This document shows positions 2,018-60,723 of a stretch of 64,000 nucleotides of DNA, piece by piece (position 1 is the first letter of the stretch; the number at the start of each line of letters is the position of its first letter). Source of the DNA: Isurus oxyrinchus (Eukaryota); assembly GCA_026770705.1 (NCBI GenBank), contig JANJGN010000041.1:4650001-4714000 (forward strand), read 5' to 3'. Made by a program: the position numbers and the translations under genes. The notes below the pieces were generated by a model. It was given only the letters and a program-made list of their open reading frames with translations, had not been told where the DNA came from and searched no databases.

Positions 2018-2185
2018 GATCAGAATCTGAGAACAACAGATTGTAATGTTACAACAATGGAGCAGTATAGGAGAATATTGAATTCGAATGTTGAAACAAT
2101 GAATTAGATTGTGAGGACAATATAATTGGATGTTACAACAATGGATCAGAATCTGAGAACAATATTTTGGGATGTGACAACAATG
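2018..2185 (+). repeat. 42-bp tandem repeat (4 copies, 21-bp sub-period), in frame with exon 1 of GPCR pseudogene A
   Basis: Units start at 2018, 2060, 2102 and 2144 and each ends in ACAATG. Translation: DQNLRTTDCNVTTM / EQYRRILNSNVETM / N*IVRTI*LDVTTM / DQNLRTIFWDVTTM. Confidence 0.85.
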
Positions 2186-2315
2186 GAAAAGACTTTATCC
2201 TCCGGACTTTACTATCTTTCTCAAGATTGGATATTGTTAGCTGATTGGAGCAATGGTGTTCTTGCCGTGATTCAAGTGAGTTATTACCCCATCCAATCCA
2301 TTGTTGGTGTCTCAG
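2141..2315 (+). pseudogene. Exon 1 of GPR139/GPR142-like pseudogene A (splice donor mutated GT>AT)
   Basis: Reads MDQNLRT...VLAVIQVSYYPIQSIVGVS then g|ataag, paralleling IEAIYYPILAAIGVP g|gtaag of the intact exon 1 at 51344-51413. Confidence 0.75.
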
Positions 2316-2589
2316 ATAAGACGCTCTATTCAGCAGTCCAATCCCTAAAGCACAGATAACTGCATTACCGTTACTATCTTTAACATTTATGCAACACTGC
2401 AGCCACATTCAACTGTTACCAGCATAAAGTCTGTTCCCTATCCAGAGTCTGCACTGCCCCCTGGCACAAATGTCGAAGCCTGAACCAAACTGTTACCCAC
2501 CTCCAAGCTCCGTTAATACTGATCTCATTTCTGAGCCCAGATCCTCTGCATTCTAAATTTTGTCTGCTACCAGTTCCTTTACACCAACC

Positions 2590-2880
2590 ACCATCACCCC
2601 TGCCTCAGTCCAACAGCAGAGTAACACGCCGCTGTGCCTTGGTTAAGGCCAGACTCGACTAATGTTAATCTCTCCACACAATTCCTGTTACAAACCTTCA
2701 AGAACCAGAGCCCACCAAAAACTCGAACGTCTGTCAGGTAACTTACACAAAATCCCATTTGTCCGTCATCCATGTGCTCACGGATCAACGTTGGTCGTGG
2801 GTCTGCAAGATCCTCAACTTCAATAATCCTAATCCTGTGATTATATCACTCCATAGCCTCACTCCTCCAATTAATCCAAT
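2590..2880 (+). mobile_element. L2-type LINE ORF2 C-terminal fragment, degenerate
   Basis: Resembles the L2 segment PCLS..AETL..A.V.SRLDY..(QNSAAR)..TK....I.PVL.DL.W....FKIL....SLH.L.P; carries stops and frameshifts. Confidence 0.55.
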
Positions 2881-3329: not shown

Positions 3330-4250
3330 GAACACAGGTGAAGTAAGTCTGATGCAGCGAGGAGTTGGCTGCATATATGTGTCACGTCCTTCAATATGTG
3401 CAGGAGCCTCACATCAGGGTGAGGGAGGTGCTGCCAGTGGCCGTTCAGGTCAGAGGATAATGGAAAGTTTCAAACAAGGAACAAATGACATGTTCATTTT
3501 TCAACAGAATTTTTTGTAATGATGTATCCAATACTTGAGAGGGAACATAAATGTTGGGAGAAGCATTTGCACCGTTGGGTCCCTCCAAAGGGAGAAGCAG
3601 GAAGTGTGGTCCCATGGCTTCCCAGGATAGCAGCATTCCGTTGGTGTACATGGCTCTGCCATGTCTCCATTTCAATTGGGACAGTTACAGGATATGAAAG
3701 GTTTCTCAGTCCTTTAACGTGCAGTTGATGTGCGGGTATGCACAGTGTGTCATGATGGTGACTGTCCCATATCCTCGCTGCAGACACGATACCTTCATTC
3801 TGAAGCAGTTGGTGATTTCCAACACATTCAGCTCTCCTGAGAGAACCATAATGTGGCTCTTACGTGATGAAAGCAGCCCCGCAGATAATTGGATCAACAA
3901 AACAAAACACACCCTCAATGCTCCCTGATGTCCAGCGAGCAAGTAAACACAACACCTGAAGAGTGACAGCAATGGAGCTGCACCGAACATTGTGAATCAA
4001 GCCGTGAGTGTGATGAAGCAATGCTTCGGATGCCGGAGCCATGCAGTGTGAGCACTCATTCTGGAGCGGGTGGTCGTGCTCATAATGTTCTAATTCTCTC
4101 TTCATATCATCACCATCATGAGGACATGGGCATTGACACCAGAAACCCGAGGAATACCACAGGAAGAGGAGTAGAGTACAGTTACGGTATACCCTGGAAG
4201 CATTTGAATTTGAGAGGTTGCCGGATTTGCTTCCTTAGACTCTAGTTCTG
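3330..4250 (-). mobile_element. PIF/Harbinger DDE transposase relic
   Basis: Minus-strand pieces GALRVCFV..SSRKSHIM..SAARIWDSHHHDTLCI..LLSWEAMGPHFLLLPL..ETFHYPLT follow the HARBI1 order GAIDCTH / NRKG.HS / ARYPGS.HD / LLGD.GY..LLTP / RF.CL. Heavily mutated. Confidence 0.5.
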
Positions 4251-5189: not shown

Positions 5190-6086
5190 CTAACCCTAAT
5201 CGCGATTATGATCCTCAAGCGCAAGAGGTGTGGTCTCGCCGATTGTGTTACCCATTACCTGGTTGCCATTGGCAGTGTCTGATCTACTTGTCATTATCCT
5301 TGACCTGACTTTGAGGCATATTCCAATTGTGTTAGATAAGTATTTTGTTTTCACGAAATCAATCCCCATGTTTAATATCCATGCCATCCTGCTTTATGCA
5401 GCCAATGACTGTTCTGTCTGGTTCACTGTTGCTTTCACCTTTGAGCGATTTGTGGGTATTTATTGCCTAAAGCTGAAAAGCAAATATTGCAGCGAAAAAA
5501 AACGGCAGCTCTGGTTTTTGGCACCGTGAATGTGCTGAGCTGTTCAAAGAACATTTTCTGCTGTTTTATGCTCACAGGTTAGTGTTGGCTCATAAACTTC
5601 CTCCGGTTTTGTGGTTACACAAAGGAAGTTCTGTTGTCACGGTTCAGGGTAAGAATCTACTTCACCCATCACATGCAAATACCGCGTGTCGCATTTGTGT
5701 GGATTGTGCTGCTCAATATTTTGACAGGAAGGTACATTTTACTGGCCAGCAGCGGACACCTGAGGCTCCATGCTCGCAAAAATTGGAAATCTCCCGGGGA
5801 ACAAGATATGGAGAGTCAAAATAAATCGATCATTTTACTGATCTAAACCAATTTCATACTGTTATGGGCAACGTAAATCGTTTATTCTATATGGACGCGG
5901 CTGTATGAATTTGGGGACAATTCTCTGTACCTGCCTAATATGGTTCTGGAATTGTGTTTCATGCTGCAGCTCCTGAGTAACTGCACAAAGACTGGGATTT
6001 ACACTGTGACCCAGCTGAAATTCACGGAACATATGTGGAGTATGGTAAACTATCCCTTTAATCACATTATTCAATTAGATCAATGA
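5190..6086 (+). pseudogene. Exon 2 of GPR139/GPR142-like pseudogene A
   Basis: Motifs RCGLADCVTHYLVA, SDLLVIILD, ANDCSVWFTVAFTFERFVGIYCLKLKSKYCSEK, DMESQNKSIILL and LQLLSNCTKTGIYTVTQLKF. Acceptor AG lost (ttgcac at 5185-5190); several frameshifts and stops. Confidence 0.9.

Positions 6087-8650: not shown

Positions 8651-8655
<5 letters not shown>

Positions 8656-8683
<28 letters not shown>
8656..8683. repeat. (CA)n microsatellite
   Basis: About 14 CA units read directly. Confidence 0.95.
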
Positions 8684-12860: not shown

Positions 12861-12861
12861 T

Positions 12862-24456: not shown

Positions 24457-26500
24457 ACAAACCCTTGTTCGCCTTGTGCGAGTTCGAGTGTGTGCTCACG
24501 CTCTTGATTGGCAAACCGGTTTTCATTTTTACATGGTGATCGACCTAAACAGCATCTACACAGCATTTCGGACAGAACGCAGATTTGGCAAAATATACCA
24601 TGAGCCAATTTTCTGGACAGTTCTGGTTATCAATATCACCTGTGATCAACGGCCATTTCCGCCATCATTCTGTCTTCATCCACCTTGTGAGCATCGAAAC
24701 ATTTACCCAAAATAGCGCATCTCCTTGTGTATCCAGGGCACTTTACTGAAAAAACAGACTTTAGAGACGGCGGCAGCAGAATTTTTCAAAGGTTTCGTAA
24801 ATCGCTGAGGCCGACGTACCTGACATCCCGCCCACGATTGAGCATCCAGGGATAACTGAGGACGACACCTTCCAGGCAGGAAGACAGCTCCATCACGCTT
24901 GTACCCGATGCTGCTCTAGCCTGAAGTGGGCTTGAGCTGGCCAGACTGTCAACCAAAATGTACATGATGTGTTTCGGTGAGCTTCAAACTGGCAAACCCC
25001 TTAAAGAAATAACATTTGAAGGCAGGTGGGTTACCATTGCTGCAATAAATATGAAAAATAAAATCTTATTTCAAGAGATAGTCATTTAATCGCCCCCTCC
25101 CTTTCATTCAGGTCATGCCTGATTTTTGACTTCACTTATATTATGTGCACACTTCCCTTGAGCACATAAAAAATCAGAGCCATAAAGTAGCAACCTTGCA
25201 TGCAGTCTCCTGTAAAGAAGCGTAAAAACAAAGTTTCACCAAAAAGCAACACATCAAATGTTTGCCCCCTGGTAAAATACCCTAATTCACCTGAACTTTT
25301 GACCACCAAAATGTGCCTGGATTTGGAACGCCGCTGTATAATCTCTTCAGAAGACACTGTGCATGATGCTGCAATAAACTATCCGATTTCAAAACAAGTT
25401 TGACAGCAGCCTGAGACATGGATGGCTTGTTCCTCACAACTAAGAGGGTCTGTCCCTAGTGAGATCTGCAGATGTGAAAAATGAAGGCCTGGCGAGAAAA
25501 CTGGTCAATTTTCACAGAAGCCAAATTGTTCAAAAAATGCGGGCCTGAAAGCAACTGTGGAAAGAAAGAAAAAGTTTACTTTCCGTGTCCATGGGGCACT
25601 TCTTCAAAACGTTCATTTGTCAACTTTGTTCGAACGTGTTTGCATATGTTGCCTTACGCAGACTATCCTCACCGCATTTCTGCACCCCTCTTTAGGCAGT
25701 TAACATTCAGTCTGAAATGAAAACAGCCTTGTGGAAACCATATCCAATAGCCTCGGATAACATTGCGTCAAAACACGCTGTCCATATGTCGCCTCTGCTC
25801 CCCTGTTTACATCCCATTCTTCTGGTCCATACATCTGCGATGACAGGATTCAAACTATTCAGCATTTTTAACACTTCCATCGAGCGCCTTGGCCAATTTC
25901 TGTGGTGAAAACTCACCATGAGAATTCAAGATATTTGTTTTTCTCCATTTTGTATTGTGCCACTTTGCGTCCATGGATCCTGCAGCTGCACTAAGTCGTA
26001 TTCTCTGATGAGGGACCAAGAAAGCCTGCAAATGCAGAGAGCAACGTCCGGTGATTCTGAAACGTTGCATCTGACAAGTTTAGTTACGCTGCTGAGTGGA
26101 CATGCATAAAGACACGTCTTCCTTTACCAGTTACATATGATGTTTTGCATCTGACACAATGATTTGTTTGTTTGGATTATGAAAATGGAGCGGGGTGTGT
26201 ATTTGCAGGAGATAGGCATCTGAAGCCAATGGTCAACTGGAATTCCATGCAAATTCTTTGCGAGACTGAACGAGTGACAAAATGAGCAAAAGAGCCGAAG
26301 AAGAAGCATCTGTGCCTCGGGGCAACGGGAAGAAATGACGCCATGTAGTGATTTTCAAGAAAGAAGATGCATCCCGTTTCAAGCAATGGAAGTTAACTGT
26401 CTGCATTGTGCAGACAAACTGATGAACTATCGCTTCAAAATGAAAATCTCAGTGCAAATTTATATCTCACTGGCTCCTTTGGAAAGCATCAGCCGGCCTC

Positions 26501-26567
26501 TCCTCATTAGTAATAGTGGTGTGTATCCCCGCCTGTCACACAGGAGAAAGGGGTTAATTCCCCTACG
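26501..26567 (+). tRNA. tRNA-Asp(GTC) pseudogene, 3' acceptor strand lost
   Basis: tcctcattagtaatagtggtgtgtatccccgcctgtcacacaggagaaaggggttaattcccctacg retains the GTC anticodon loop; has an indel and a truncated end. Confidence 0.85.
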
Positions 26568-29219
26568 AACATTGTGTGTGGTGGAACGCCTGCTCGCGCT
26601 TTGCATTCACAATCCGGTTTTCATTTCCACATAGTGATCGACCTAAACAGTATTTCTGACAGGAGGCAGATTTCACAAAGTACACCATGAGCAAGTTTTT
26701 TGGGCAGTTCTGGTTATCGGTATCGCCCGTGATCAACAGCCATTTCCACCATCATTCTGTCTTCTTCCATCTTGTGAGCGTCAAAACATTTATCGAAAAC
26801 ACTGCATCTCCATGCGTATCCAAGGTACTTTACTTATAAGACTTACAGACTTTAGAGATGGCGGCAGCACAAGTTTTGAAAGATTTTGCGATAATCGCTG
26901 AAGCCGACGTACTTAACATCCCACCCACGATTGAACTCCCAGGGCTAAGTGGCGATGACAAATTCCAGGCAGGTCCATAGCTCCTTGTCTTCTGTACCCG
27001 ATTCTGCTAAGGCATGAAGTAGGCTCATCATGGCCAGTGTCAACTGAAATGTACGCAATGCATTTTAGTGAGATCCAACGTTGCAAATTCCACAAAGAAT
27101 TAACATTTGAGGGTATGCCAATTTCCATTACTTGCAATAAAAAGGAAACATAGAATCTGATTTCAAGAGATGCTCATTTAATCACCCTCACCCTTCTCAC
27201 ACGTCATTCCTGAATTTGTACACTTCCCTTGACTACATAAAGTTCTAGGCGAATAAACAGCAACCTTGCATGTAGTCCTCTAAAGGCCAAGGTAATCATC
27301 CGTGAAAACAAAGTTTTGGCAAAAATCCCCTGGTTCTGTCAGCAACGCATCAAATCTTTGCCGACTGGTAACTGACCCTAAATCAACTGAAGTTCTGACT
27401 CCAAAATATGCCCATATTTTGAGCGCCGCTCTATAACCTCTTCAGAATTCACTGTGCTTGATGCTGGAATAAACTATTGGATTTCAGCTTCGCCAGCAGC
27501 CCGCGTCATGCATGGCCTCTTCCTCACAACTAAGAGGTTCAGTCCCAAGTGTGGCACGCAGATGTCAAAAAGTAAGGCTGGTTGAGAAAACTGGTCAAGT
27601 TTTGCAGTAACCTAAATTTTTAGAAAAAATTCTGCTGGCTTGAAAGCATCTGTGGAAAGAAGGAAATGATTTACTTCCCGAGTCCATGAGGCACTTCTCC
27701 AAAACCTTCATTTGTCAACTTTCTTCGGACATGTTTGCATAGGCTGCCATACGCAGGCTATCCTCACCGAATTTCTGCACCCATCTTTAGGCAGTTAACA
27801 TTCATTCTGAAATGAAAACAGCCTTGTGGAAATCCGATCCAATAGTATCGGATACAATGCATCAAAACACGCTACCTACATTTAGCCTCTGCTCCCCTGA
27901 CATCATCCCCTTCTTCCTTACCTACCCTGCCCTTTCTTATCCTGTTCTGCTGTGAAAACACATCCACAACAATTTTATTTGACGGAAATGCTCCTGGAAC
28001 TGACCGAGGTACTAAATCCTTGTCAGTGGCAAACTGACGCTATGAATTAAATAACAATATAAATTAGATCATGCAGGTGAGATAGACTGAGGTCTGGGCT
28101 CCCACAAACAACAACTCAGATTAGTTCAAAGCTCTGCAACCCAGCCACATCTAACTGCATCCAACAGTAGAAAAAAACGAAGGAGTAGTGCTATACAACT
28201 GTCCCCATTTTAAATATTGCAGGCTGGGGTGGCTAGTCACTGACTGCCTCCAACCTGAAATGACAACGTCCATCTCGTCTGCTGTGCTCTCCAAAAAACA
28301 ACATGGAAGCCAATATTTAGCTTTCACTCCACGAGATGGCACGTATCGGCTGAAAGGACTGGGTGCAGCATCCTGAGAATATTCCATATAATGTCCCCTC
28401 AGACTGGCAGCTCTTTGCTCACACCTTGCTGAACAGTGTTACGTAGGATTGCCTGTTTGCTTCATATCTGCTGGAAAACGCTTCCCACCCGCACCACTCA
28501 TCTACGCGTTGTAAGGTACAGTACAAAAGTTGGAAGGTTTAGCAGTTTTGATAGCAAATTGTGCGACCGTCGTCTGGTACGGTCCTCCAAATACTCACAG
28601 CTTCTGTAGTATGGATCACAGCCGGAACTTCTTGTTCAGAGGGAGGAACAACAGTGTCTCCTTGAATACCTTAACAACACCTTGTTTAGATTTAAGAACC
28701 TTGCCTCTGATTAGAACACATCACTTTGAAACGTAATGCATCATTCTTACATATTATGCCTACTCTTTGTTAAGGGCACCTCCCCGTTAAGGTTTTCAGT
28801 TGGCACCTTTCACTTACTTTCCGAACTGAGGCGCAACTTCTGTCAGACAGTTTAACAATAACCGATTTGATTATTTAACAAACCACAATCGGCTGAACTA
28901 TGAAATGTTTAGCCATCTGGGCAGAGTTGTGTGGAAAGTTGAGAGAGAGAGAACGAGAGACACTACAAAAGAAGGAAAGAGAAGGAGCTGGAGGGAGGAT
29001 CGAAGACAAGCTACCTGCAATGCAAGCAGATTGGCAATAGAAATAACTAAATGGTAATGTGAGGAATAATAAAGAATTTTACACAGAGAACTTTTAGAAA
29101 TTTGGATGCATTGTCTGATATTGACGTAGGGCAAATTGCAACTCATGTGCTCTAGTTTTGCTTACTAACGATTTTGTGCATGTCTTTATGTAAAACTTAC
29201 AAAAAATCTAAAGTTAGTA

Positions 29220-37479: not shown

Positions 37480-38070
37480 TCCGTTAACATTTGCAGAAAT
37501 TGTGATCTCTCCTAATTTGCCACTGGGCAAAAGGTGACTATGGCAGTGGCAAGGCTGGTTTCCCCAGCCTGATATTTCGACACTTTCTGATTGTTTTCTC
37601 ATAAAGTGTTTCGTTTCTTGAACTCCACCGCCGTGTTTAATGCCAACACTATCAGCCACTGACTGTTCTGCCTGATCCACAGTCACTCGCACCATTGAAA
37701 GCTCTGTAGCTATTTGTTGCCAAAATCTGAAATGTAAATATTGTGCTGGAGAAACAGGGGCTGAGGTTCGGTTAATAGTGACTTTTTTGGGCTGTTCAAG
37801 GAACATTTCCTGATACTTATTGTTAGCAAATGAGTATTGGCTGACGATATACACACGCTCTGGTATGTGACAATAAATGACCTGCATTCTCGGGCCTGGA
37901 GAATAATCGAATTCCTCAATCACATTCTAAACCTGGAGAGGCCATTTGCCCTGCTCTTGCTGTTCAATACTTTCACTGTCAAGCACAGGTTACTGACCAG
38001 CAGAAGTAGCAGGAGACTCCGGGCTGTCAGAAAGATGGAAAATCTAAAGGAACCCAACATTTTACTGTTA
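37480..38070 (+). pseudogene. Heavily decayed exon 2 of GPR139/GPR142-like pseudogene C
   Basis: SATDCSA*STVTRTIESSVAICCQNLKCKYCAGET..AWRIIEFLNHILNLERPFALLLLFNTFTVKHRLLTSRSSRRLRA..MEN aligns with TM3-ICL3 of the other copies; has deletions and stops. Confidence 0.85.
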
Positions 38071-38799
38071 TCCTCTCAACCAATTGCATCAATTAATGGA
38101 CAACTTTTGCCCTTTATTCTCTGTGGTGTCAGATGTTGGATGTGTTGTCCAGTTTTATATGTCCAGACAATTTTGGTCAAATATTTGGTTTCATTCTACA
38201 GCTCCTGAATTGATGCACAATCATTTGCATTTATATTGTAACTCAAAATATCTTGTGATTGCACTCGAAGAATGTGCTCGGATATGATTAAAGTAACTGA
38301 AAAGCTGTTCGTGGGCAGCATTGTCTCATTTTATTTCAGGATTTGAGCGTGTGGTGTGGCTTGCCAGCAAGGCAAAGGAGGAATCGTGAGATGGTCACAA
38401 ATGGTAACATTGTCTGTTGAACAATTAGCATTTACAACATGAAGATACGTCCCTCCGATCAGACATCATAGTCTTCAGAATAACAGCACACCAATTGTAC
38501 CTACCAGCAGCATCACCCATTGTACCCAGCAAACCGCCCCCCACCTACTCCACCCTAACAAGCATTTGGCCAGCCCACATATCCATCACAACACATCCCA
38601 CAATTGTCACTTGCAGATGTTGCACACATTTTGGGATGTGAGTAGGTGAATTACGTACCACAGTGCTCCCAGAGCCCGGCCTGGTCTTGTAGCAAAAATA
38701 GTATTCGCTTTACTGATGAACATGAACGATAAATGTGACAGTGATTTTGCATAAGGGGTCTTTGTCTTTGTTAACTCTCCCCACCAGCCTCCAAGCATC

Positions 38800-44385: not shown

Positions 44386-44389
44386 TTGC

Positions 44390-45960
44390 AATGAAGCATT
44401 CTGAAATTTCTCCCCATTTAAATAAAAAGTCGCCTTTTTATTCTTCCGAAGAAAATGTATAACCTCACAATTATCCATGTTAAACAATATCTAGCAAATT
44501 TTCTCCCATTCTCCTAACCTGTACATATCCATTTATAAATATTTATATCTTAATTACAACTTACTTTCACACCTATGTTGGTTTCAGCTGCAATTTTGGA
44601 TACAGTGCCTTCTATCCCTGAATCCAAGTCATTCATAAAGATTGTAAAAAATTTTCCCCAATGACCGAACCCTGTGGAAACACATTATTTACAGCTTAAA
44701 AAAAAACAGAATTACCTGGAAAAACTCAGCAGGTCTGGCAGCATCGGCGGAGAAGAAAAGAGTTGACGTTTCGAGTCTTCATGACCCTTCGACAGAATTC
44801 TGTCGAAGGGTCATGAAGACTCGAAACGTCAACTCTTTTCTTCTCCGCCGATGCTGCCAGACCTGCTGAGTTTTTCCAGGTAATTCTGTTTTTGTTTTGG
44901 ATTTCCAGCATCCGCAGTTTTGTTTTGTCTTTATTTACAGCTTGTCATCCAAAAAAGACTCATTTATCCAGACCCTGTGCTTTCTGTTAGTTAGCCAATC
45001 CTCCATCAAAGCTAACATATTACCCATCACTCCGTGTGATCTTACCTTGTGTATTAATCTTTTGTGCGGCTCCTTATCAAAGAGCTTCTGGAAGTCCAGA
45101 AATACAACATCCACAGGATCTCCATTATCCACTTTGTTTGTCACATCTTCACAAATTACCCAAACATGGTTTATTCTTCATAAAACAATGCTGACTCTGC
45201 TGGATTGTATTTTCACTTTACAAATGCCCCATTAGTAATTCCTCAATAATGGATTGCAAGAATTTCTCAAAGACTGACTTTAAACTGGTCCACAGTGTTC
45301 TACTTTCTGCCTGCCCCAAACTTTCTCAATAAGGAAGTCGTATTAGTATTATTCAAATCCACTGTAACTTTTTCCGGAATCCAGGGAATTTTGGAATATA
45401 ATTACAACTGCATCCACTACCTACGCTGCCACATCGTTTAGGACCCTTGGATGTAGGACAACCGGCCATGCAGACTTCTCACATTTTGATCGAAATAGGT
45501 TGCTCAGTACCTTTTCTCTAGTTTTGGTAATTTTTCTCACTGTGCTCTACATGTTACGATTAGGGTGGCACTAGTTTCCTCCACCGTCAAAATTGAGGCA
45601 AAATATTTAGGCAAAAAATAAAGTCGCATTTCTGTGTTCACCACTGTTAACTCCCCAGTCCTGCACTCCATGGGACCAACATTCAATTGAACTACTCTAT
45701 GTCCTTTTATATACTTGTAGAAGCATTTGATATCAGTTTTTACATTTAATGATATTTTTCCTTTGGTCTTTATGATTTTTAGTAACCCTATCTTCATCTT
45801 TATATTGTTCCCAATCTTCCAGCTTGTCACTGACCTTTGCCATTTGGTATGCCTTAGTTTTGGATTTTCTGTCACCTTTAACTTCATTGTTTAGCCATAG
45901 ATGATTTTTCCCCCTCTTACCATCTTTCTTCTTCATTGGAAAGATTGTTTTCTTTAGTTT
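44390..45960 (-). mobile_element. CR1 LINE ORF2 (RT) fragment truncating the env relic
   Basis: TNKVDNGDPVDVVFLDFQKLFDKEPHKRLIHKVRSHGVMGNMLALMEDWLTNRKHRVWINESF and NVKTDIKCFYKYIK..NVGPM. Confidence 0.9.
44698..44930. mobile_element. Penelope pLTR-derived palindromic insertion (two perfect 96-bp arms, 44702-44893) with 13-bp TSD
   Basis: Centre GACAGAA|TTCTGTC at 44797/44798, arms exactly complementary. TTATTTACAGCTT occurs at 44685-44697 and 44931-44943. Confidence 0.92.
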
Positions 45961-46504
45961 TGCGATTGTAATGCGGCATTGTTGATAATGGTATTTGGAG
46001 ACATTTATGTGACTGAATGTGTTGTCCAAGTCGATTATCAGTTTGCACATTTAATGCAGCAAAGAGCTGAGGGTTTTAAGCCAGGTCGAGGGAAAATGTA
46101 CCCTTGGCTCCAGGTCTGGCCAATCAGTTTTGACTTATTTTTCCAGTTTTTCTGCTCTTCCCGGTAAATTAGTGATGCTTTTGTTCCTGTTGCGAGGAAA
46201 GTGTTATCTTTCAAATTGTATTATTTGTTCCCCGAAGCAAATGGCAGCGAGCGAGTTCCTGGACGTCATATCTGACCCGATGTTAAGGGGATTTGCAAGT
46301 GAAATTTCCAAGTTTATTCGTCTGAAATACATGTGTACGTAAATTCAATGCGTTTCTATGTTTGTTTTTAATTCACAATGACATCTTTCTGCTTCACAGT
46401 GGCCTTTATCAATGATCCAACAGCAGATAGTTGTTGCAAGATGCACTTTTATTACAGCCCTTCATGTTCAAATCTTTCTATCTATCCATCCAGCCATTAT
46501 GTAA

Positions 46505-46798
46505 CTAAAACTTAAACATAAATACCTGGAAAAATTCTGCAAATCAGAGAGCATCAGTGGAGAGGAAGACAATTAAAGTTTCGAGTCCGTATGACAGTGA
46601 TCACTGGCCTTAGATCCAGCTGTACCTGGCCCAAACCCCTCACTTAGAACACCTTATATTTCACCTCCTTTCTATTTTTCCATAGTTCTGTTAAAGGGTG
46701 AATGAGCTCGCAACGTTAACTGTCTTTCTCTCTGCAGATGCTCTCAGACCTGCTGAGATTCTCCAGATATTTTTGCTTTTCTTTTGTATGTCCAGCAT
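46505..46798 (+). mobile_element. Older Penelope 3' end with inverted pLTR copy at its 5' side
   Basis: 46505-46597 resembles the reverse pLTR (cctggaaaaattctgc..gtttcgagtccgtatgac). 46598-46798 is the forward 3' end (agttctgttaaagggtg..cgcaacgttaactg..cagacctgctgag) and runs into the gap. Confidence 0.75.
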
Positions 46799-47347
46799 NN
46801 NNNNNNNNNNNNNNNNNNNNNNNNNNNNNNNNNNNNNNNNNNNNNNNNNNNNNNNNNNNNNNNNNNNNNNNNNNNNNNNNNNNNNNNNNNNNNNNNNNNN
46901 NNNNNNNNNNNNNNNNNNNNNNNNNNNNNNNNNNNNNNNNNNNNNNNNNNNNNNNNNNNNNNNNNNNNNNNNNNNNNNNNNNNNNNNNNNNNNNNNNNNN
47001 NNNNNNNNNNNNNNNNNNNNNNNNNNNNNNNNNNNNNNNNNNNNNNNNNNNNNNNNNNNNNNNNNNNNNNNNNNNNNNNNNNNNNNNNNNNNNNNNNNNN
47101 NNNNNNNNNNNNNNNNNNNNNNNNNNNNNNNNNNNNNNNNNNNNNNNNNNNNNNNNNNNNNNNNNNNNNNNNNNNNNNNNNNNNNNNNNNNNNNNNNNNN
47201 NNNNNNNNNNNNNNNNNNNNNNNNNNNNNNNNNNNNNNNNNNNNNNNNNNNNNNNNNNNNNNNNNNNNNNNNNNNNNNNNNNNNNNNNNNNNNNNNNNNN
47301 NNNNNNNNNNNNNNNNNNNNNNNNNNNNNNNNNNNNNNNNNNNNNNN
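46799..47347. other. Assembly gap (549 N)
   Basis: Run of n; ORFs spanning it are artefacts. Confidence 1.
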
Positions 47348-51343: not shown

Positions 51344-51413
51344 ATGGGAGAACTGATACTTCATCAGATAGAAGCCATTTATTATCCTATTCTCGCGGCT
51401 ATTGGCGTTCCTG
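51344..51413 (+). CDS. Exon 1 of an intact GPR139/GPR142-like class A GPCR
   Basis: aagATGg start context; encodes MGELILHQIEAIYYPILAAIGVP; canonical phase-1 donor G|GTAAG at 51413/51414. Confidence 0.8.
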
Positions 51414-52094
51414 GTAAGAACCTAAACACAACCATTACCAGTATAAATTAATGTTGACGTTCTTCTCAAAGGACGGTTCCAATAATATATGAATAGTTTA
51501 TTTAATGTTGGGCAGTCATCGAGGAAGGGATGTATGTTTAACCATAATGTTAACAGGTTTCTTCCTGTTGGTCTATCATTCACTCCGTGGTCCCCAAAAC
51601 TGACACCGTATTCATGCTTTAGGGAATGCCTTGTGGGCTCTGCAATAATTATCAAAATCAAGTCCAAACCGAGTTTGAACTGGTAGAAAACACCATCTAT
51701 TAAAATCTGTGCAGAGGCAAATTCGTATTCTGAAAAATTATGCATGAAATACTTCAAGTCTTTGCCAGTGCTTTTCCTCCATTTTCCAATATTTAAAAGA
51801 AAGGGACCCCTTCAAATCAAATAGTTATTGACACAGCGATACTTGTACAAATCTGTAGGCAGAGACGATTTCTGGAAGTCCTGGTGAAAAAGGTTAGTGC
51901 GTGTGCTGAAGACATTTGATGTCTAAATAATTTGTCTGTTGAAATACATGCATTTCTACAGCCTCATTTATCGAACCTAATGAATGTACATTTGGTGTAC
52001 TCACTGAAGTACCGCAAAAGGTTAAAGGCAATTTTTGGTCGGGAAGCTTGCACCAGCAGCAAGTTGACAATGACCGAATGATCCGTTTTGTAGG

Positions 52095-52355
52095 CTTTGG
52101 GAGATGTTTAAATAGTGGTCAGGACATAAGGGGCTACGACAATATTGTTCTTTAAAATAGGGGCATGGAATATTTGACGTTTACCTTGTGCAATGATCTG
52201 ACATCTGTTCTGAAAGTTACTACTGCCGATAGTGCAGAACTACTTCACTACGGCCACTGGAGCATTATCCCAGAATTTTGTTTTCAATTACTGATGCATG
52301 ACGTAAGTAATCAAACATCTATCTCAGCATGGAGATTGCTAACTCAGACATAAGT
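52095..52355 (-). mobile_element. Deu-domain tRNA-SINE (SacSINE1/AmnSINE-like), degenerate
   Basis: aaatagtggtcaggaca..aaataggggcatggaatatttgacgtttacc..gccgatagtgcagaactacttcactacggccactggag matches the reverse DeuSINE as I recall it. Confidence 0.6.
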
Positions 52356-52577
52356 GGTCCGACTTCTGAACATCTATGCACCCCGAGTAGTTGTCACATT
52401 CTCATTATTCTGCTCACATCAATTTCTAGCCATCCACTTCCTGCTGTTGAAAACGCTGCTTCCAAATCTAACTGATTTACATTGAGGATTGGAGTGGATT
52501 GATATTAAGCATTGTCAGAATACCCTGCTGCCTTTGGAAACGCACTTTGCCAGGTTACATGGTGGCAATGAGAGGGA

Positions 52578-53000
52578 TATAGGAGCATAGGAAATACGAG
52601 TAGAATTTGACCATTTGACAACACTAGGGTGCCCCATTACGAAAGTATATCTTAGCTGAAATTATGCCTCCACAGCATTCCGTGCACTATCTTAAATGTT
52701 TGGATGCAGTTAATATTGCGAAATCGGTTCACTGACACCTTCAGTATACTCAATGAATGCCCATGTGCCGAAGATGCAGTACATAATTTCGAACATTTAC
52801 CCTTCCCTGAATGACGAATTCTTCCTAATCTCAGTTCTAAATGCAAACGTCTTATCCTGATTTTGCTTTTCCTGGTTTTAGACACAACCGCCAGGTGAAA
52901 TATGCATGCAAGATCTACATCACCACAACTTATCAGAACGATGAATTCTGCAGTGAGGTCTCTTCTCATTTCCCAATGCTTCAGAAAGCAAAGGATATGG
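52578..53000 (-). mobile_element. CR1 3' end fragment
   Basis: ataggagcataggaaatacgagtag..gaccatt.. and ttcttcctaatctcagttctaaatg are typical of the reverse CR1 tail. Confidence 0.6.
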
Positions 53001-55469
53001 CTCGTCAAAATCTCCACATAGGACAATACCAGATAAATCCCAGTAATCCAACAAGTAATCTGTTCAAAATTCCTTGTCGCAGAGTTACACCAACACCTAA
53101 TGAAACCTACACCAAAGAAGCAGAATGGAATGTTTGACCAGCACCACAAACATTACCATCAACACTCCACATGACAATTGCAAAGTTGGGGATACTCTGG
53201 TTTGGGGTTACAAATTATTGTTGCACAAATCAGCTAAAGCTGATTATCCACAGTGCCTCCTGAATGCCCACTTTTGAGTTGTTAATCAATGTGAAATCTA
53301 CCCCAATTAGCACAATGGTTGTCTCACGCAGTATGATGGAGGGAAGCCCTGATGTGAGGAGGAATTATTCTGCACAAGGACCGTGCTTAACCCTATCAAT
53401 CCTTTAATGGACAGATGCACATGTGGTGGGTAGCTTGTTGGAGCGAATTCACTTAGATTTTTGCATCTGGTTGGTTCCTTCGTCATCTGCTAAAATCCAG
53501 TCTAGAAGTTATCTTTTTACCTCGGCCAGCTCGGCCATTATTAATTCTACAGATCCCCTCTTACTCACAGATATCGAGGTGCCCTTTGTAAAGCTTTTTT
53601 TCTTGTCAATCTCCAAAACGTGGGCCTTTGAAGACCATCGATTCATTCGCTACACAGCAGGAGGGGACAGTCATTGTCCATATGGTACGTGACGTCATTG
53701 ATTTCATTTCAGTACCACGTGCTCTCAAGGATATTTAAAATGATGCAAACTGAACGTGTTGCAAAATGCTATTTAGGAATGCAATAATACAGTTGAGCGA
53801 TATCGAAAAATTCGGTGGATATTTCACCTTTTAGATTAGATTATTTCACTCAGATTTTTGCTGATGATTCATATGAACTTTAAAGCAGTAAGAGGAATTA
53901 TCATATATAGAAAAACAGCATGAATAATTAAGTTCACGGAATGATTGCAAATCAAACAGTCTGCTGTGTCCTGGATTAAGTCAATATTCTTGAATTCTAT
54001 TGGAACATAAGGCATCAAGAAAGTTATAGAGTATCCCATCACACTCCTGATTTGTGCATTTTAGATGGAAGAAAGATTTTAGAGAGTGCCTTGCTCACCA
54101 CAGCATTCTCAGATTCTGACCTGTCCGTTTAGTCACAACTTCTTGTCAATGTTTTGTCCAAATACATTGAATATGGGGGCTTAAGCGATGGTAACGTGAT
54201 TAAAACGCAAGTGTATATGTTGGATGATCTTTTGGTGCAGGTGTTCATTGGCTGTCAATTTTCTGCGCCGGATATTACCTGTCATTTTTTCAGCACAAGT
54301 CTCGCTATTACCCAGTTTTTGATGTAAATGGGCATGGATTTCAACAGCATCAATTTTGTCGCAAATTGAACATTGAACAATCATCAGTGGACACAATCCC
54401 CTCCCAATACCCCACCCCCTCCCCACTACACCAAATACTCTTCTGTGTTTAAAATGCAGAAAAGTTCATTGATGCAGCAGCTTAATATGGCTGTGCTCAG
54501 GACACTGCCCACAGGCTCTCGTCTAGTGATGTCATGGGGCTGACATAAATCAACTGGAAAACAAAAGAAAAATGTAAAGAAATAATATTTTCGCTTGGTA
54601 TGACTTCAAGCAGTGGAGAACCGGCTCTTTAATCTTATTGACTATAATTCTTATAGCCCTCGTTGATACGCTAGTGTAATGACTGTTCTCCTGATCTAAA
54701 ACACAGCCCCTCTCTCCTCACCACATGAGCACAGCACTTTTGAACATGTTTAGACCAAGGCAGAACGGAGATTTGGAGCACGCACAAAGCAATAATTGAG
54801 TGTCATTGTGCAGTTTACCGCTGAGCATGTGGTGATAAGAAGCATTGCCCATGATACTTTTTAACACTTTGGTTATGATGAAATGTGGGCCGATGGGGCT
54901 GTAATTAGAATGCTAGGCTTTGTCGTGGTTTTTTTTTTTGTGGATATGTATACCAGTGAAAATGCTCACACTTTTGTTTCGATGCCAGTGTTTTGGATGC
55001 ACCATACCTGCTTCGATAGGAAGGCTTATTCAGGAGCACTGATTTCCCATCCTCTTGGCTTTATCTAAAATCACCCATAGCCTTTGCATCATACAGATCC
55101 TTCTGTCATTCCATAAATTCATGTGCTGAGAATCACATTGTATGAAGACTGGAAATTGTGATGCTTGTCACCCCTAGGAGGAGGCCGGGATGGTTCATCC
55201 ACCCGTCAATTCAGGGTGAATGCGGCTGCAAATTCATGTATATGCTGCGATGCACTGTGCTACAGATTCATTGCCGATGGGGACATTGTTGGAGAGCCAT
55301 TGAGTTGCAAAATGTTCCACCACCATTAAAGTCGACTGTGACAGGACTTCAGATCTGAGCTATCGTTATTTGTTAGGGGGATCAATGAGTCCAGTATTTC
55401 TCATACTGAACATGCTGTTTTGCTTGCAACTCGGCCTGTCTTACAATGCACCAGGTTAAGCTGTTTTGT

Positions 55470-55730
55470 TAGGTAGGATCGCTGCTGCCTTGGACATACG
55501 AAAGATGTTGGCTGGGTTCTTTTGTTTGTGCACATGACCCCGCAAGCCTGGAAGGACAAGAGCAGAAGAGGCATGGGAACGCTGTTAATTATAAATCCTT
55601 TCCAAGTCACACACCAAGGTGACTTAGCGATTTATCACGGTTCCTTGACTGTCACTGGATGAAAAATCTGGAAATCCATCGCTTGTAGCAAAGTGTCTGC
55701 ACCCGCTTCACAAGGACTGCAACGCTAGAA
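55470..55730 (+). mobile_element. LINE 3' fragment (same family as 35190-36520)
   Basis: gaaggacaagagcag..gcatgggaac..tccaagtcacacacc..gttccttgactgtcactgg is the reverse complement of the tail at 35.3 and 50.9 kb. Confidence 0.6.
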
Positions 55731-58700
55731 AAAAAAAACATTTTCAAGAAGAATTAATGAAAACGGAAATCAAATTAGTCATCTTGTCAATATATTCAAA
55801 GAAAAGAAAATGTTGCAAGATGACCCAATGATGAATACTGATATCATTTTTGAATTGAAATTACGGCCCTGGCTGCTTCTTTTCTTCCAATTCAACAAAA
55901 ATGAACTAAAAAATGCATGTTTAAATGTAAATTATTTTACGATAACACTGGCCCCTAGCTGAGAATGTATATTTCAAATGAACTCCTGAATATCCAAATC
56001 TTTAAAAAAATGATTGGCTCCAATTGTCGTCCGCAAGTTGGAGCCACCCCCCACCCCAACCACGTCACCCCCAAAACCCCAAAACCCCACCACCCACCCA
56101 CCTCAAATATGCAGAATTTTCACAAAGATCAATAACGTACGTTGCTTATAATGACATTCCGTACATAAATCTCCCCAGTTGCAGATGGAGAACGGGCGGG
56201 CCCACCTTTTACCAGTTACTAATTAGCAAGTTATTAAGATTGTGAACGAGACAATTGTATGTTTTCTTGATTTATGCTCTGCACTTGTCATGGCCCAGAC
56301 GAGAGAGAAAAGAATGTTTCTGGGCAGCTACCATCAGGCGAGAATCGCGCAGAAGAGTGGTTCTGCCTCCGGGACCATGATTAAATGTAGCAACAGATTG
56401 TGCTGGGGAAGATGGCAGCGAGGTCATGTTTACTTTTCAGATTTTTGATTCTTGCCTGAGCTTTCAACAAAAAAACATTTTTTGGAAAAACAGTTTCTGT
56501 GAGCAGGTGGTCTTGAGCTTGCAACCAGACCGACTTTCTGTTCGCAGCATTACACTCTGCCACATGATGTTCAGGTTTTCACTGCAGATGGGACGGGGAG
56601 CCCATTTTGCATCACTCATTGCTTCCTCTCCGTTGGAATTTAATGAATTGTGGAGCGGGAGGTGGTCTAAGTGAGGGTCAGTATAAAATGTTCTAATTTT
56701 ACATTTCTCCAATCTCATGCTGCCGAGAACCGTAAAATCCAGAACACGGTCTACTTATTGTACTGTTTCTTGATGCTCATATATGACGATTAACGTTCTG
56801 AGCCTGCACCGCAGGATTTGTCTCGCATATCTAGTTTAACTTCTGCTATCGAAACTGCAGCAACGCGTCATAACCACAAACACTATTCAGTGGATCACAC
56901 TCGCTGGTGCATTCGCCACAACATTCACAAGTTGACTGAAATAAATTAGTTCTTAGGTTTCTGTCTTGAATGAAACATATGGCACAGAAAATTGTTAATT
57001 TGTACTTACACTGCGAATAGAACTTTGTTGTTAAAGTGATATGGATCTGGGACCCGGGAGGAAATTCCATCGCTCTGTAGTTCTTCAGACTCGGGTGTTT
57101 GCAGTAACGACACCAAGAAGCACATAAACCAAACAGCAAATTAATAACAGGTCAGGAGCAGAGTGCATTTGCAGATTGCAAGGGGTCATTCTGTGGCATA
57201 TATATTTTTTCATTTCTCTAGTTTATTTAGCAATGAATAACGTTGATAATATATTCGATGACTGTATACTTAATTTGCCAGGTAATCAATGGATAATGGT
57301 TTCGATAGATCACTATTTCATTCGGTAGATAATTGGATGGCTCAATCCAGGGCATTTCAAAGTTTAATTCGGAAGCAAATACTGGAAATATACTGATAAT
57401 TTATTGGACAACAGTTTTGATCTTTAATTTGTTCAAAGATTGACTGTTTCATTATATAACCGTTTAAATTACGGTATTTTATAAACTGCCCCTTATTCAC
57501 AGTGTCAACCAGTACAGTTTCAAGTGATGATAATTTGGCTAACAGTCTTTGGATAAATCACAATACTGCACGGATAATTATGTCACTCAGTTGAAAAGCA
57601 TGTCATTGTAGGAATATTATTATTTGGTTTGCTCAAACAATAACAGGTATCGGGTAAATGAAGGTTATTTTGCATTTTTGACATATGTTTTAAACTGGAA
57701 TTGTGTCAAAATAGCTTTGAATTCTAAAACTTCCATTCTTTCCAGTGCAGCCTACAATGTCAACAGAAACTCAAACTTTAATTTGTATCCATTGCCTGTC
57801 ATTTTCAAAGCTGCTTGTGATTACCTTTGACAGCTCCATTAAGTCAATTAATGTTGATGTTTGCATGCGAGTTAGAAAATTGTGCATCGGAGGCTGCCAA
57901 CTGGACTGCGTTTTTAACAGAAATAGACATTTTTGTGTGTGTATCGTTAAAGCTTACCAAATTGCAAACTGATTTAAAAATGTAAAAAGCTATTTATATT
58001 TATCCGACTAATTCGCCTTATTCATTCAAAGTTCATCTAAATCATTAACCAACATTGACTGAATTAATATCATTCAAAATGTTAATTCACCACCCCTTTT
58101 ACAGACGTTCAATGCATTGTTCTTTCCCTGAGTTCAAGTTTGCGAAAACTCTACGTTCAGTCTGCACCATGTTGCAGAGCCTTGAATACACCTGGTAAAC
58201 GAATTAACTCTCTATCTACTTATACAATTATTGTGGGAATGTTTTCCATTATCTAATGTGTGCCTCCCGAATCTAATCGGAGATTTCAATCGGAAAGCTA
58301 TTCTGCACCTTTACCAGATCCATGACATCTTATCCTAGACCATCGCCAACAGAACTATATAGAAAATGTCGGCAGCGATCCGATGACATACTTTCGAAGA
58401 TAATTCAGGCTAGATCATTTAACTTGCTTCGAAATGCAGACAATAATTTAATAAACGTGCGTATCAAGTTATCACATATCTGGCAGCTACAAATTAGTTC
58501 ACTGAGATTCACTAAGAAAATGTATTCTTCAGAATTCAAATGGAACTTCACTTATTAAGCAACAGAAATCATGATGCAACCGTGATTATCTGAAGCTCAC
58601 GTCAATTTTCCTTGACTTATATACATCATTTAGTTTAATCAGTATAAATGTTTTGAATTAATCTTCAGCATTCTAATGCAGCATTGAATAACTTTGCTAA

Positions 58701-59818
58701 TTCACTAAAAATGTTCCTGCATTTTGAAGAAAAAAGAAATATGCATTTTATAGCCGATCAATGATTGGAAACTCTGCCCTGTCTACTTGAAAGCAAAAAG
58801 CCAGTTATGACCTCACCAGAATCAAATCTTCGAATTGCTCATTAATATTGCTCTGCAAGCAATGTGCCCTTATGGCCAAAAAATCATGCCAACTCCATCT
58901 GATAACAATGTCACCGTTCCCATTCTGGCATTAAAGTGCCCTCTTGATCACGATGGGCTGCACCCATTCTGCATAGCAACTTTGCTTCGTTCTTTCTGCA
59001 AGGAATTAGCGATGCATTCACATGAAATTCTCCTCAGCATTGCCCAGCCAGCATATCAATCACACACATGATTGAGCAGCTCTCTGGAATAAAACGTCTC
59101 ACTGGGAACCTGCATAATACTGTCACTCTGTACTGATTTTCATTGTACAGCCACTATGACAACTCCTGTGTCAACTTGCATCAGGCCTTTCCGAATGCTG
59201 GTCTTTTATTGAGCTCAGTGACTATTCTTTGGCCCTGTGTGTTTACCTTTTCATCTTTACCCACACAAGCGTTCAGATTATGTTCGTGTCCCTGGGCAAT
59301 ATTTTACCCTCAAGCTCTAAGTCCTGTTGCACAGTCGTCCTTCCCACTACGTATCACAACTATAGGTCACCAGCACGCATTGCACCAGTACCTCTTCCAC
59401 AGTATAATTCCACATGGCCCAATTTCTATTTTGTGCATTTATTTCCCACTTCACATCGTAACAACACACATGGATTGGCTCTTTATACCTTTCATTTACC
59501 TTTTAATATTCAACATACCCAGCCGTTTGTATGCTTTCAAATTGTCCAATTCAAATTTGCTTTCAGCAAACTCAATCATAATTGCAGAATAGTTGTCCAG
59601 TTTACTTTGACATTCGTTTCAAAAGCAGAATTATGAACTGACGTTTCTCTTCCCTATCCATTTTCACTGGGTTCCGTTTACATTTAGAACATGGTCACGT
59701 CAAAAAGCAGGTTGTGCATATTTGGGTCAAATGGACGATCCTTTGCTGCAACAGGAAGAAGATTAATTATATTCATCTGTGTCATCAACCTCATGCTCTC
59801 TCTATCTCTCTCTTACAG

Positions 59819-60723
59819 TTAATGTTGTTGCCATTGTGATTCTTTCAGGAGGAATGTGTGGCCTCTCCAAATGTATTACCCATTATATGATCGCCATGGC
59901 TACGGCGGATCTCCTGGTTGTTTGTGCTCAAGTCATGTTGAACAATAAGCTGTATATGTATTTACCTGCTTCATTCTTGACCATGAGCACGGTCTGCCCT
60001 CTAACTGTGACATTGACTTATGCAGTCATATCAGCTTCTGTCTGGTTAACAGTGGGGTTCACCTTTGATCGTTTTGTGGCCATATGTTGTAAGAAGCTGC
60101 GAAAAAAATATTGCACGGAGACAACAGCAGTAGCTGTCATATCAGTGGTGAGTGTGTTGAGTTGTTTGATGAACATTCCCTGGTACTTTGCGTATGAACC
60201 TGCATATACAATGGACAATGTAAATCGTGGTTGTGTCCTAAAACTGACATTTTTCATTTCTGATGAATGGGCCGCATTTGCCTTGCTTAACATTGCCTTG
60301 ACCCCATGTGTTCCATTTATTCTAATTTTGTTGCTAAATTTTTGGACGGCAAGATGTATTTTGGCAGCCAGTAAAGTTCGCAGGGGTCTCCGCGGTTGCA
60401 ACAATGGAGAACATCACAAGGATACTGAAATAGAAAACCGAAGAAAGTCCATTGTTTTACTCTTCAGTATAACCGGTAGCTTTATATTGCTCTGGACAGC
60501 TCCAATTATATATATTATTTCTCTGCATGTAACAATCACATCGATTTCTGGGACAAACGAGATTGAGACAGTTAGTTTCATGCTTGGATTCCTCAGTTGC
60601 TGCACAAATACATTCATTTATGTGCTGACACAGGCTAAGTTTAGGGAGGAGCTGAAGAGAGGAATACAGTATCTTGTGAAACTGTGCGTTAAAATAGGCA
60701 AATTACAGCTGAAAACCCATTGA
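59819..60723 (+). CDS. Exon 2 of the intact GPR139/GPR142-like GPCR (spliced product 324 aa, 7TM)
   Basis: Polypyrimidine acceptor ctctctcttacag|59819 is phase-compatible with exon 1 (70+905=975 bp, open). Motifs: GVPVN (TM1), AMATADLL (TM2), FTFDRF (TM3), NIPWYF (TM4), PCVPF (TM5), FILLW (TM6), SCCTNTFIY (TM7), KFREEL (helix 8). Confidence 0.92.

What the first reader, a model, noticed from the sequence alone, without database searches (positions are those of the whole stretch)
2141..60723. Birth-and-death cluster of GPR139/142-like receptors: a candidate lineage-specific chemosensory or ligand-sensing repertoire
Seen: four divergent same-strand paralogs in 60 kb, with a short phase-1 exon 1 (found for two copies) and one large exon 2. 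One is intact, one has only two stops, one has both splice sites and its frame broken, and one is heavily eroded. Extracellular loops and TM5-TM7 differ strongly, while CSVWFTV.FTFDRFVAICC.KLK.KYC and EME.RR.S..LL are conserved. TM7 has NTxxY instead of NPxxY. Known: mammalian GPR139 and GPR142 are single-copy receptors activated by aromatic amino acids, and sharks have very few classical OR genes. Inference: tandem expansion with a high pseudogene fraction is how sensory or immune receptor repertoires behave, so this may be a little-studied chondrichthyan chemoreceptor family.
Basis: partly seen in the sequence, partly recalled or inferred. Interest (0 to 1): 0.75.

Follow-up and report, generated by a model that had tools for sequence, protein, structure and literature searches.

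The report
Large hidden shark receptor repertoire
One intact and four broken receptor genes here belong to a family with dozens of different copies per shark genome whose predicted ligand pockets differ far more than the rest of the protein, so it likely forms an overlooked set of chemical sensors in animals thought to have few.

Summary
The cluster is real and holds five same-strand copies, not four: one intact two-exon gene (324 aa; 51344-51413 + 59819-60723) and four broken ones. It is not GPR139 or GPR142: it is 23% identical to human GPR139, while catshark has true orthologues at 81% and 59% to mouse. It belongs to a large elasmobranch family (119 of the 120 best hits are shark or ray; at least 42 and 34 distinct members in two species). 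The nearest non-shark relative is an apparently single-copy amphibian and sturgeon gene. At equal overall divergence, 29 predicted pocket positions are 99% identical among amphibian orthologues but 52-54% among shark paralogues, whose G-protein side is better conserved. That pattern fits a many-ligand repertoire. Three window copies fall in three old subfamilies, so this is no recent tandem burst. NTxxY is not special, since GPR139 also lacks the proline. No expression data were obtained, so chemosensory versus immune or reproductive use is open. Ten paper searches found no description. The scan noted this family before, in a ray (e1-7813824).

The parts
2018..2187 (+). 42-bp tandem repeat (about 4 units, 14 codons each, DQNLRT..W/C.NVTT type with an N-x-T sequon) running into exon 1 of copy A; one unit holds stops
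   Evidence: relatives P0147, P0233, P0244, P0246 carry 1 to 8 such units at the N-terminus
2141..2315 (+). Copy A exon 1, long-N-terminus subfamily; donor reads AT instead of GT
   Evidence: tblastn with P0147 E 3e-14, 55%; sequence
5191..6080 (+). Copy A exon 2, pseudogene: acceptor reads AC, two frameshifts, three stops
15261..16165 (+). Copy B exon 2, pseudogene: intact acceptor, two in-frame stops (15512, 15953); exon 1 not found
   Evidence: (368 bits)
37493..38285 (+). Copy C, heavily eroded exon 2 relic (two frameshifts, five stops in the part read)
   Evidence: 45, 32, 19 bits; nhmmer E 4e-68
46148..46446 (+).
   Evidence: (E 1.7e-8), shuffle control
51344..51413 (+). Copy D exon 1 (23 codons + 1 base, GT donor)
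   Evidence: 91% identical to P0001 residues 1-23; top score 57.7 in an exon-1 profile scan
51414..59818 (+). Copy D intron, phase 1, GT-AG, 8405 bases (splice inferred from homology, not from RNA)
59819..60723 (+). Copy D exon 2; with exon 1 an open 324-aa class A GPCR
   Evidence: Pfam 7tm_1 E 1e-18; AlphaFold2 pLDDT 91; fold matches

Best explanation
The window is an old, mostly decayed cluster of a large shark-and-ray family of class A GPCRs that is a sister lineage of GPR139/GPR142, and the family likely works as a repertoire of sensors for many different external chemicals that all feed one conserved G-protein signal. Shown: gene structure, fold, family size, deep subfamilies, pseudogenes, and a predicted pocket that varies between paralogues while the intracellular side stays conserved. 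Inferred: an ancestral single-copy receptor for one aromatic amino acid or peptide-like ligand (kept in amphibians and sturgeon) was amplified in elasmobranchs; each copy changed its pocket and kept its coupling face (Gq/11 or Gi/o by analogy with GPR139); copies are lost by stops, frameshifts and splice-site decay. Untested: ligands and the expressing cells, most likely sensory epithelia (nose, mouth, skin, gill or gut). The family placement and repertoire pattern are about 0.9 likely; the confidence given is for the whole statement, with external chemosensing.
For: Family size: 2197 of 3939 candidates at E<=0.001; of the 120 listed, 119 are named and all are elasmobranch, from 15 species, 49 Heptranchias and 36 Heterodontus (my tally). 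These stay 42 and 34 groups at 90% core identity, a lower bound and already at the level of the catshark V2R family (34 genes, PMC10116579). Outgroup: the salamander query gave 25 hits at E<=1e-25 among 1675 candidates: 20 amphibian clusters under 20 different species names, 1 sturgeon, 4 elasmobranch. Tree of 38 rows: 25 elasmobranch rows form one side (92/86) and join amphibian+sturgeon (94/96). Pocket test: mean pairwise identity at 29 pocket positions is 0.46 (49 Heptranchias), 0.46 (36 Heterodontus) and 0.99 (20 amphibians); at 110 intracellular-half helix positions 0.81, 0.81 and 0.80; 0 of 2000 random helix sets were as extreme. For pairs matched at 68-80% overall identity: pocket 0.54, 0.52, 0.99 and intracellular 0.89, 0.84, 0.77 (326, 238, 66 pairs). 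D keeps D2.50, C3.25, DRF, P5.50, F6.44, W6.48, N7.49 and Y7.53 and differs from its closest relatives in about half of the pocket positions but only 14-16% of the intracellular ones. Language-model neighbours include nematode Srw receptor clusters (a lead only).
Against: No expression evidence in any tissue. Immune receptor families show the same birth-and-death and pocket pattern (recalled), so the sequence cannot choose the tissue. The catshark nose is reported to be all TRPC2/Go-positive microvillous neurons that rely mainly on V2Rs (PMC10116579, passages). The two key tree nodes fall just short of the starred level, the model was LG+G4 without mixture, and no true GPR139/142 row was in the tree. 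Pocket positions are generic class A numbers (recalled), placed by anchoring on conserved residues; pairs are not independent; the shark set was selected by likeness to D. For D itself, 27 of 36 coding differences from run contigs change the amino acid, against 73% expected under neutrality, so D may be under relaxed constraint.
Confidence: 0.52

Rival explanations
1. Same family, but an immune or barrier-surveillance repertoire on leukocytes or epithelial sentinel cells that senses microbial peptides or metabolites, in the manner of formyl-peptide or MRGPR receptors.
For: Pocket hypervariability and high turnover fit a pathogen-driven family equally well. A broken SRCR-domain relic lies in the cluster. 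Catshark OR genes are reported highest in spleen and ampullae rather than the nose (PMC11979771 passage), so shark 'sensory' GPCRs can be used elsewhere.
Against: No row with 'receptor 139', GPR139 or GPR142 in the 4 supplementary files of a bamboo-shark liver, spleen and kidney single-cell atlas, whose marker table carries gene descriptions. This is weak: the file was cut when stored, and marker lists miss sparsely expressed genes.
Confidence: 0.22
2. The family senses self-made or conspecific peptides in internal signalling or reproduction (brain, gonad, oviducal gland, sperm), as the protostome relatives do for RFamide and Wamide peptides.
For: GPR139/142 are the deuterostome sister of the protostome MIP, proctolin, FMRFamide and myosuppressin receptors (bioRxiv 10.1101/2021.03.03.433790, passages). 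The top fold matches are peptide receptors.
Against: An endogenous ligand should hold the pocket fixed, as in the amphibian gene (0.99). Dozens of divergent pockets and four pseudogenes out of five copies would need a matching peptide family, and I know of none (recalled).
Confidence: 0.12
3. Mostly neutral amplification and decay in a repeat-rich shark genome; D is a young pseudogene whose frame is still open by chance.
For: 4 of 5 copies here are broken. D shows 27 amino-acid-changing and 9 silent differences among the 36 coding rows of the 40 differences shown, out of 154. D departs from consensus at 5 of 90 strongly conserved columns, including R to G in the first intracellular loop.
Against: Neutral decay would erode both faces alike, yet the intracellular side is as conserved as among amphibian orthologues. 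41% of 174 family rows have 5 or more such departures. 20 of D's 27 changes lie in the extracellular 41% of the exon (binomial p 0.0005), though the contrast with silent changes is not significant (Fisher p 0.13) and which contigs are laid is biased by conservation. My odds: about 0.1 for the family, 0.2 for D alone.
Confidence: 0.1
4. D is the shark orthologue of GPR139 or GPR142 and senses L-Trp/L-Phe.
For: Human GPR139 is the best sequence match among solved structures (E 7e-10) and has the lowest rmsd and highest identity among the 50 listed fold matches (7vug: Z 25.5, rmsd 2.5 over 250, 23%). Both are two-exon genes (PMC7318219).
Against: Catshark has reciprocal-best GPR139 and GPR142 at 81.3% and 58.7% to mouse (PMC13200729 supplement rows). 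D keeps 1 of the 6 GPR139 Trp/Phe pocket residues (W6.48); the others read T, Y, N, P and F.
Confidence: 0.01

Closest known systems
GPR139 (human; structures 7vug, 9m42) and GPR142
   Same: Class A fold, two-exon gene, no proline at 7.50, W6.48; best solved-structure match by sequence.
   Different: 23% identity; 1 of 6 Trp/Phe pocket residues kept; separate true orthologues exist in catshark; single-copy and conserved against multicopy and pocket-variable; the shark family also lacks P6.50 in most rows (P in 5%).
Unstudied amphibian and sturgeon 'probable GPR139' gene (P0225, P0279-P0298)
   Same: Likely the sister and pro-orthologue of the shark family (tree 94/96); shares the TVAFTFDR..VCC.KLK..YCT and DPE..RR..S..LL motifs and an N-terminus of like length.
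   Different: One cluster per species name; pocket 99% conserved, keeping F3.33, W6.48, K6.51 and N7.39 in the GPR139 manner; 26-30% identical to D.
GPR210A/GPR210B subtypes of Rinne et al. 2019 (PMC6504862)
   Same: GPR139/142-related subtypes in coelacanth, gar and a few fishes, absent from human (passage); probably include my coelacanth/teleost lineage (P0229, P0250), not verified.
   Different: That paper's text has no mention of sharks or cartilaginous fish and reports no expansion.
Vertebrate chemoreceptor families OR, TAAR, V1R/ORA, V2R/OlfC
   Same: Works-like resemblance: clusters, pseudogenes, variable pocket, conserved coupling side.
   Different: Different GPCR branch: only Pfam 7tm_1 passes; expression in sensory neurons not shown.
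Nematode Srw chemoreceptors and protostome RFamide/Wamide receptors
   Same: Same wider clade; Srw clusters among language-model neighbours (7 of 30 hits share that family set); srw as an expansion of peptide-like receptors used for chemosensing is recalled.
   Different: Independent expansion; invertebrate rows lie outside the chordate clade in the tree.

Membership tests
Class A (rhodopsin-like) GPCR | 7tm_1 profile above cut-off | tested here: met
   68.2 bits against cut-off 30.5
Class A (rhodopsin-like) GPCR | Seven-helix fold with D2.50, C3.25, D/E-R-Y/F, P5.50, W6.48, N7.49, Y7.53 | tested here: met
   pLDDT 91, pTM 0.86; Z 25-27 to peptide receptors; residues present, but P6.50 and P7.50 absent
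GPR139 orthologue | High identity to mammalian GPR139 (70% zebrafish, 81% catshark) | tested here: not met
   23%, 42 bits; references
GPR139 orthologue | Pocket E108, F109, H187, W241, R244, N271 | tested here: not met
   D reads T, Y, N, W, P, F
GPR139 orthologue | Conserved synteny | not testable with these tools
   No genome held; I identified no intact flanking gene in the window
GPR142 orthologue | Single-copy reciprocal best match | tested here: not met
   Catshark has a separate GPR142 at 58.7% to mouse; D sits among dozens of paralogues. Indirect: no GPR142 sequence was available for direct comparison
GPR139/142-related clade (wide sense) | GPR139 is the closest characterised receptor; groups with chordate GPR139-like genes | tested here: met
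   GPR139 is the top solved-structure hit for D, P0229 and P0225; chordate clade 98/94 against four invertebrate rows
GPR210A/B (Rinne 2019) | Orthology to the named coelacanth Ensembl proteins | not tested
   Ensembl ids could not be matched to my protein ids
Birth-and-death multigene family | Many divergent paralogues per genome, pseudogenes, subfamilies shared across species | tested here: met
   4 of 5 copies broken
Birth-and-death multigene family | Recent local tandem duplication in this cluster | tested here: not met
   AU test rejects one clade of D, B and A, p 2e-47; DNA identity 53-65%
Odorant receptor, TAAR, V1R or V2R families | Family-specific profile match | tested here: not met
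   Only 7tm_1 passes in Pfam; no TAAR or OR among the best sequence hits
Chemosensory receptor repertoire (functional class) | Pocket diversified, coupling side conserved | tested here: met
Chemosensory receptor repertoire (functional class) | Sparse expression in sensory cells and response to external ligands | not testable with these tools
   No RNA holder listed; catshark expression tables not readable

The most novel reading that the evidence does not exclude
Sharks and rays have their own large chemoreceptor family, at least as big as their V2R set and unrelated to the four classical vertebrate olfactory families. It was built from a GPR139-like aromatic amino acid/peptide receptor that amphibians and sturgeon still keep as one conserved gene, and it has been hidden in databases under the label 'probable GPR139'. 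It would be a vertebrate parallel to the nematode srw expansion and would overturn the view that elasmobranchs smell with only a few dozen receptors.
Probability: 0.35. Interest if true: 0.92.

Novelty: new variant of a known kind. Interest (0 to 1): 0.77.

Why it matters
Published surveys describe cartilaginous fishes as poor in GPCRs (PMC8455134 passage) and as smelling with a small V2R set despite large olfactory organs (PMC10116579). A family with at least 34-42 distinct pockets per genome, outside the four surveyed families, makes that puzzle directly testable with existing catshark tissue RNA-seq. Whatever the tissue, it is a natural experiment: one conserved amphibian receptor against dozens of shark variants. 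It also points to an uncharacterised GPR139-like gene in Xenopus and salamanders that could be deorphanised.

Tried and rejected
No whole genome is held, so no genome-wide count of intact and broken copies and no synteny. RNA search: no RNA holder listed; two runs guessed to be RNA gave only 2 and 1 short partial pieces under 90% alike, no evidence either way. DNA runs X1 and X5 laid 241 and 410 contig records at >=82%, which suggests many related copies in organism A, but contig counts are not locus counts. The amphioxus query, meant to fetch true GPR139/142 sequences, returned 10 hits with none of them, so the trees lack these rows. GPR139 was not among the Foldseek rows listed; it appeared at rank 35 of 50 in the VIA re-alignment, where Z values are nearly tied. 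Exon 1 of B, C and E not found; a weak candidate at 35520 (score -2.1, no phase-1 GT) and a weak hit at 3724 (E 0.14-0.7) were rejected. Copies C and E were left out of the IQ-TREE run; in FastTree C joined the A-type subfamily (0.993) and E had a long, unplaced branch. Twelve other long ORFs gave no Pfam match; Rfam gave none. Paper searches found no description of the expansion; text searches for GPR139 in PMC11979771, PMC10620051 and PMC8455134, and for GPR in PMC10116579 and the manta preprint, gave 0. Supplements: PMC11979771 not readable, and its expression tables may decide the tissue question; files 13-24 of PMC8455134 were not searched; PMC10529500 held only 4,750 characters. The library lacks most subscription journals.


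Full report
OBSERVATION. A six-frame scan found one long receptor frame at 59767-60720, and tblastn with it found three more copies on the same strand. Homologues located exon 1 of the intact copy D at 51344-51413, 91% identical to the first 23 residues of P0001. With exon 2 (59819-60723) it gives an open 324-aa protein across a phase-1 GT-AG intron; the splice is inferred from homology. Copy B has an intact acceptor and two stops, at 15512 and 15953. Copy A has exon 1 at 2141-2315 with AT at the donor, AC at the acceptor, two frameshifts and three stops. Copy C is heavily eroded. A fifth copy, E, covers TM1-TM3 at about 46148-46446: 26 bits against a best of 9.8 in 20 shuffled windows. So 4 of 5 copies are broken.

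WHAT D IS. Pfam gives 7tm_1 only (68 bits). AlphaFold2 on exon 2 with a 102-row alignment gives a class A helical bundle, mean pLDDT 91, matching peptide receptors at Z 25-27. Human GPR139 is the best sequence match among solved structures but weak (42 bits, E 7e-10). In the structural list it has the lowest rmsd (2.5 over 250) and the highest identity (23%), at rank 35 of 50 nearly tied rows. True orthologues are far closer: human to zebrafish 70% (PMC7318219, passages), and catshark GPR139 and GPR142 are 81.3% and 58.7% identical to mouse (PMC13200729, two supplement rows). Of the six residues reported to bind Trp/Phe in GPR139, D keeps only W6.48. D is therefore not GPR139 or GPR142.

THE FAMILY. 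The protein search gave 2197 hits among 3939 candidates (this total includes distant GPCRs). Of the 120 listed, 119 carry names, all sharks or rays from 15 species, mostly labelled 'probable GPR139'; 49 are Heptranchias and 36 Heterodontus (my tally). These remain 47 and 36 groups at 95% and 42 and 34 at 90% core identity, which are lower bounds. The 50%-cluster library holds 100 representatives at E<=1e-30. I looked up 19 of them: 18 tie to elasmobranch names, 1 is unnamed, none is a chimaera. Ten distant hits included a salamander, a coelacanth, a teleost and amphioxus. The salamander query returned 25 proteins at E<=1e-25 among 1675 candidates: 20 amphibian clusters under 20 species names, one sturgeon and four elasmobranch. 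No amniote or teleost appeared, within the limits of a word-seeded search. In a 38-row IQ-TREE (LG+G4), the 25 elasmobranch rows form one side (92/86) and join amphibian+sturgeon (94/96); coelacanth/teleost and amphioxus groups lie outside. Neither node is starred, and no true GPR139/142 row could be fetched.

AGE OF THE CLUSTER. D groups with Cetorhinus and Heterodontus rows (100/99), B with Heterodontus and Mustelus (100/100), A with Heptranchias and Stegostoma (100/100). Forcing D, B and A together is rejected (p-AU 2e-47), and the five copies are 53-65% identical in DNA. The cluster thus samples subfamilies older than the split of these shark orders; what it shows locally is mainly death. 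Contigs of two DNA runs suggest many close relatives of D in a related organism, but they cannot be counted as loci.

REPERTOIRE SIGNATURE. I mapped 29 generic class A pocket positions (numbering recalled, anchored on conserved residues and the model's helices). Mean pairwise identity there is 0.46 among 49 Heptranchias and among 36 Heterodontus paralogues, and 0.99 among 20 amphibian orthologues. At 110 intracellular-half helix positions it is 0.81, 0.81 and 0.80. None of 2000 random helix sets and 1 of 2000 extracellular-half sets gave so large a gap. For pairs matched at 68-80% overall identity, the pocket is 0.54, 0.52 and 0.99 and the intracellular side 0.89, 0.84 and 0.77. Relaxed constraint alone would erode both faces. 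The amphibian gene keeps F3.33, W6.48, K6.51 and N7.39 in the GPR139 manner, while the shark rows vary at all of these but W6.48. Caveats: pairs are not independent, the shark set is biased towards D, 174 of 195 rows were kept for family-wide counts, and some of these are unnamed.

IS D WORKING? It keeps the core signalling residues and departs at 5 of 90 strongly conserved columns; 41% of the 174 rows depart as often or more. But of the 40 differences shown (of 154) between D and run contigs, 36 are coding: 27 change the residue and 9 do not, the neutral ratio. Twenty of the 27 lie in the extracellular 41% (p 0.0005), yet the contrast with silent changes is not significant (p 0.13). Diversifying selection and early decay are both open.

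MECHANISM. Most likely each member binds a different small molecule or peptide in the orthosteric pocket and signals through a shared G protein. GPR139 uses mainly Gq/11, and the wider clade is proposed to descend from a receptor for peptides with aromatic C-termini (bioRxiv 10.1101/2021.03.03.433790, passages). External chemosensing is my best reading (0.52); immune surveillance 0.22; endogenous or reproductive peptides 0.12; neutral amplification 0.10. No expression was obtained: no RNA holder was listed and the catshark tissue tables were unreadable. A bamboo-shark immune-organ atlas lists no family member in its stored, cut supplement, which is weak evidence. The catshark nose is reported to be microvillous and V2R-dominated, with the presumed co-receptor v2r1 at only moderate frequency (PMC10116579, passages); that leaves room for another family but does not show one.

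NOVELTY. The genes are auto-annotated in public databases. Rinne et al. 2019 named GPR139/142-related subtypes GPR210A/B in coelacanth, gar and fishes without mentioning sharks (PMC6504862, passage). Ten library searches and text searches in five shark or ray papers found no account of the expansion; subscription journals and several supplements were not seen. All papers were seen as listings, passages or supplement rows, none whole. An earlier unchecked note of this scan reports the same family in a ray and calls it restricted to sharks, rays and chimaeras. I confirm the elasmobranch expansion, did not see chimaeras, and add the amphibian and sturgeon sister gene and the pocket contrast.

VERDICT. 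Observation confirmed and extended; interpretation partly supported. New variant of a known kind (a receptor repertoire from a GPCR branch not known to be expanded in vertebrates). Interest 0.77.

Noticed in passing
window 2018-2187 and proteins P0147, P0198, P0233, P0244, P0246, P0252: One subfamily has an N-terminus made of a variable number (1 to 8) of 13-14-residue units, each with an N-x-T glycosylation sequon: a coding tandem repeat that would set the length of a glycosylated stalk.
   Followed up: partly
proteins P0225, P0279-P0298: An uncharacterised GPR139-like gene in 20 amphibians and sturgeon with a 99% conserved predicted pocket and N instead of D at 2.50; no amniote or teleost hit.
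   Followed up: partly
proteins P0229, P0250, P0264: A second GPR139-like lineage (coelacanth, teleost, one unassigned) lacking W6.48 and P6.50; possibly GPR210A or B of PMC6504862.
   Followed up: partly
window 22041-22253, - strand: Single SRCR-domain exon-like relic (Pfam E 1e-15) with a stop inside the domain; no other SRCR copy in the window.
   Followed up: partly
window 22400-27900: Block of about 2.1 kb in three tandem copies, 74-75% identical, with no codon periodicity in the differences between the first two.
   Followed up: partly
window 17000-19600 and 19950-21500: Degenerate 32-bp satellite (over 55 units, GC-rich) next to a 52-58-bp pyrimidine-rich array.
   Followed up: no
window 44698-44897: Near-perfect 100-bp inverted repeat with no spacer, made of a dispersed repeat that also occurs at 12860, 16260 and 46500-46790; its arms are 95-98% like the copy at 16257.
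   Followed up: no
window 46799-47347: 549-base run of N (assembly gap) just behind fragment E; the rest of that copy was not found after the gap.
   Followed up: partly
family alignment A1: The shark family lacks P6.50 (T in 71%) as well as P7.50 and has invariant N at 5.58, unusual for class A activation switches (the usual pattern is recalled).
   Followed up: no
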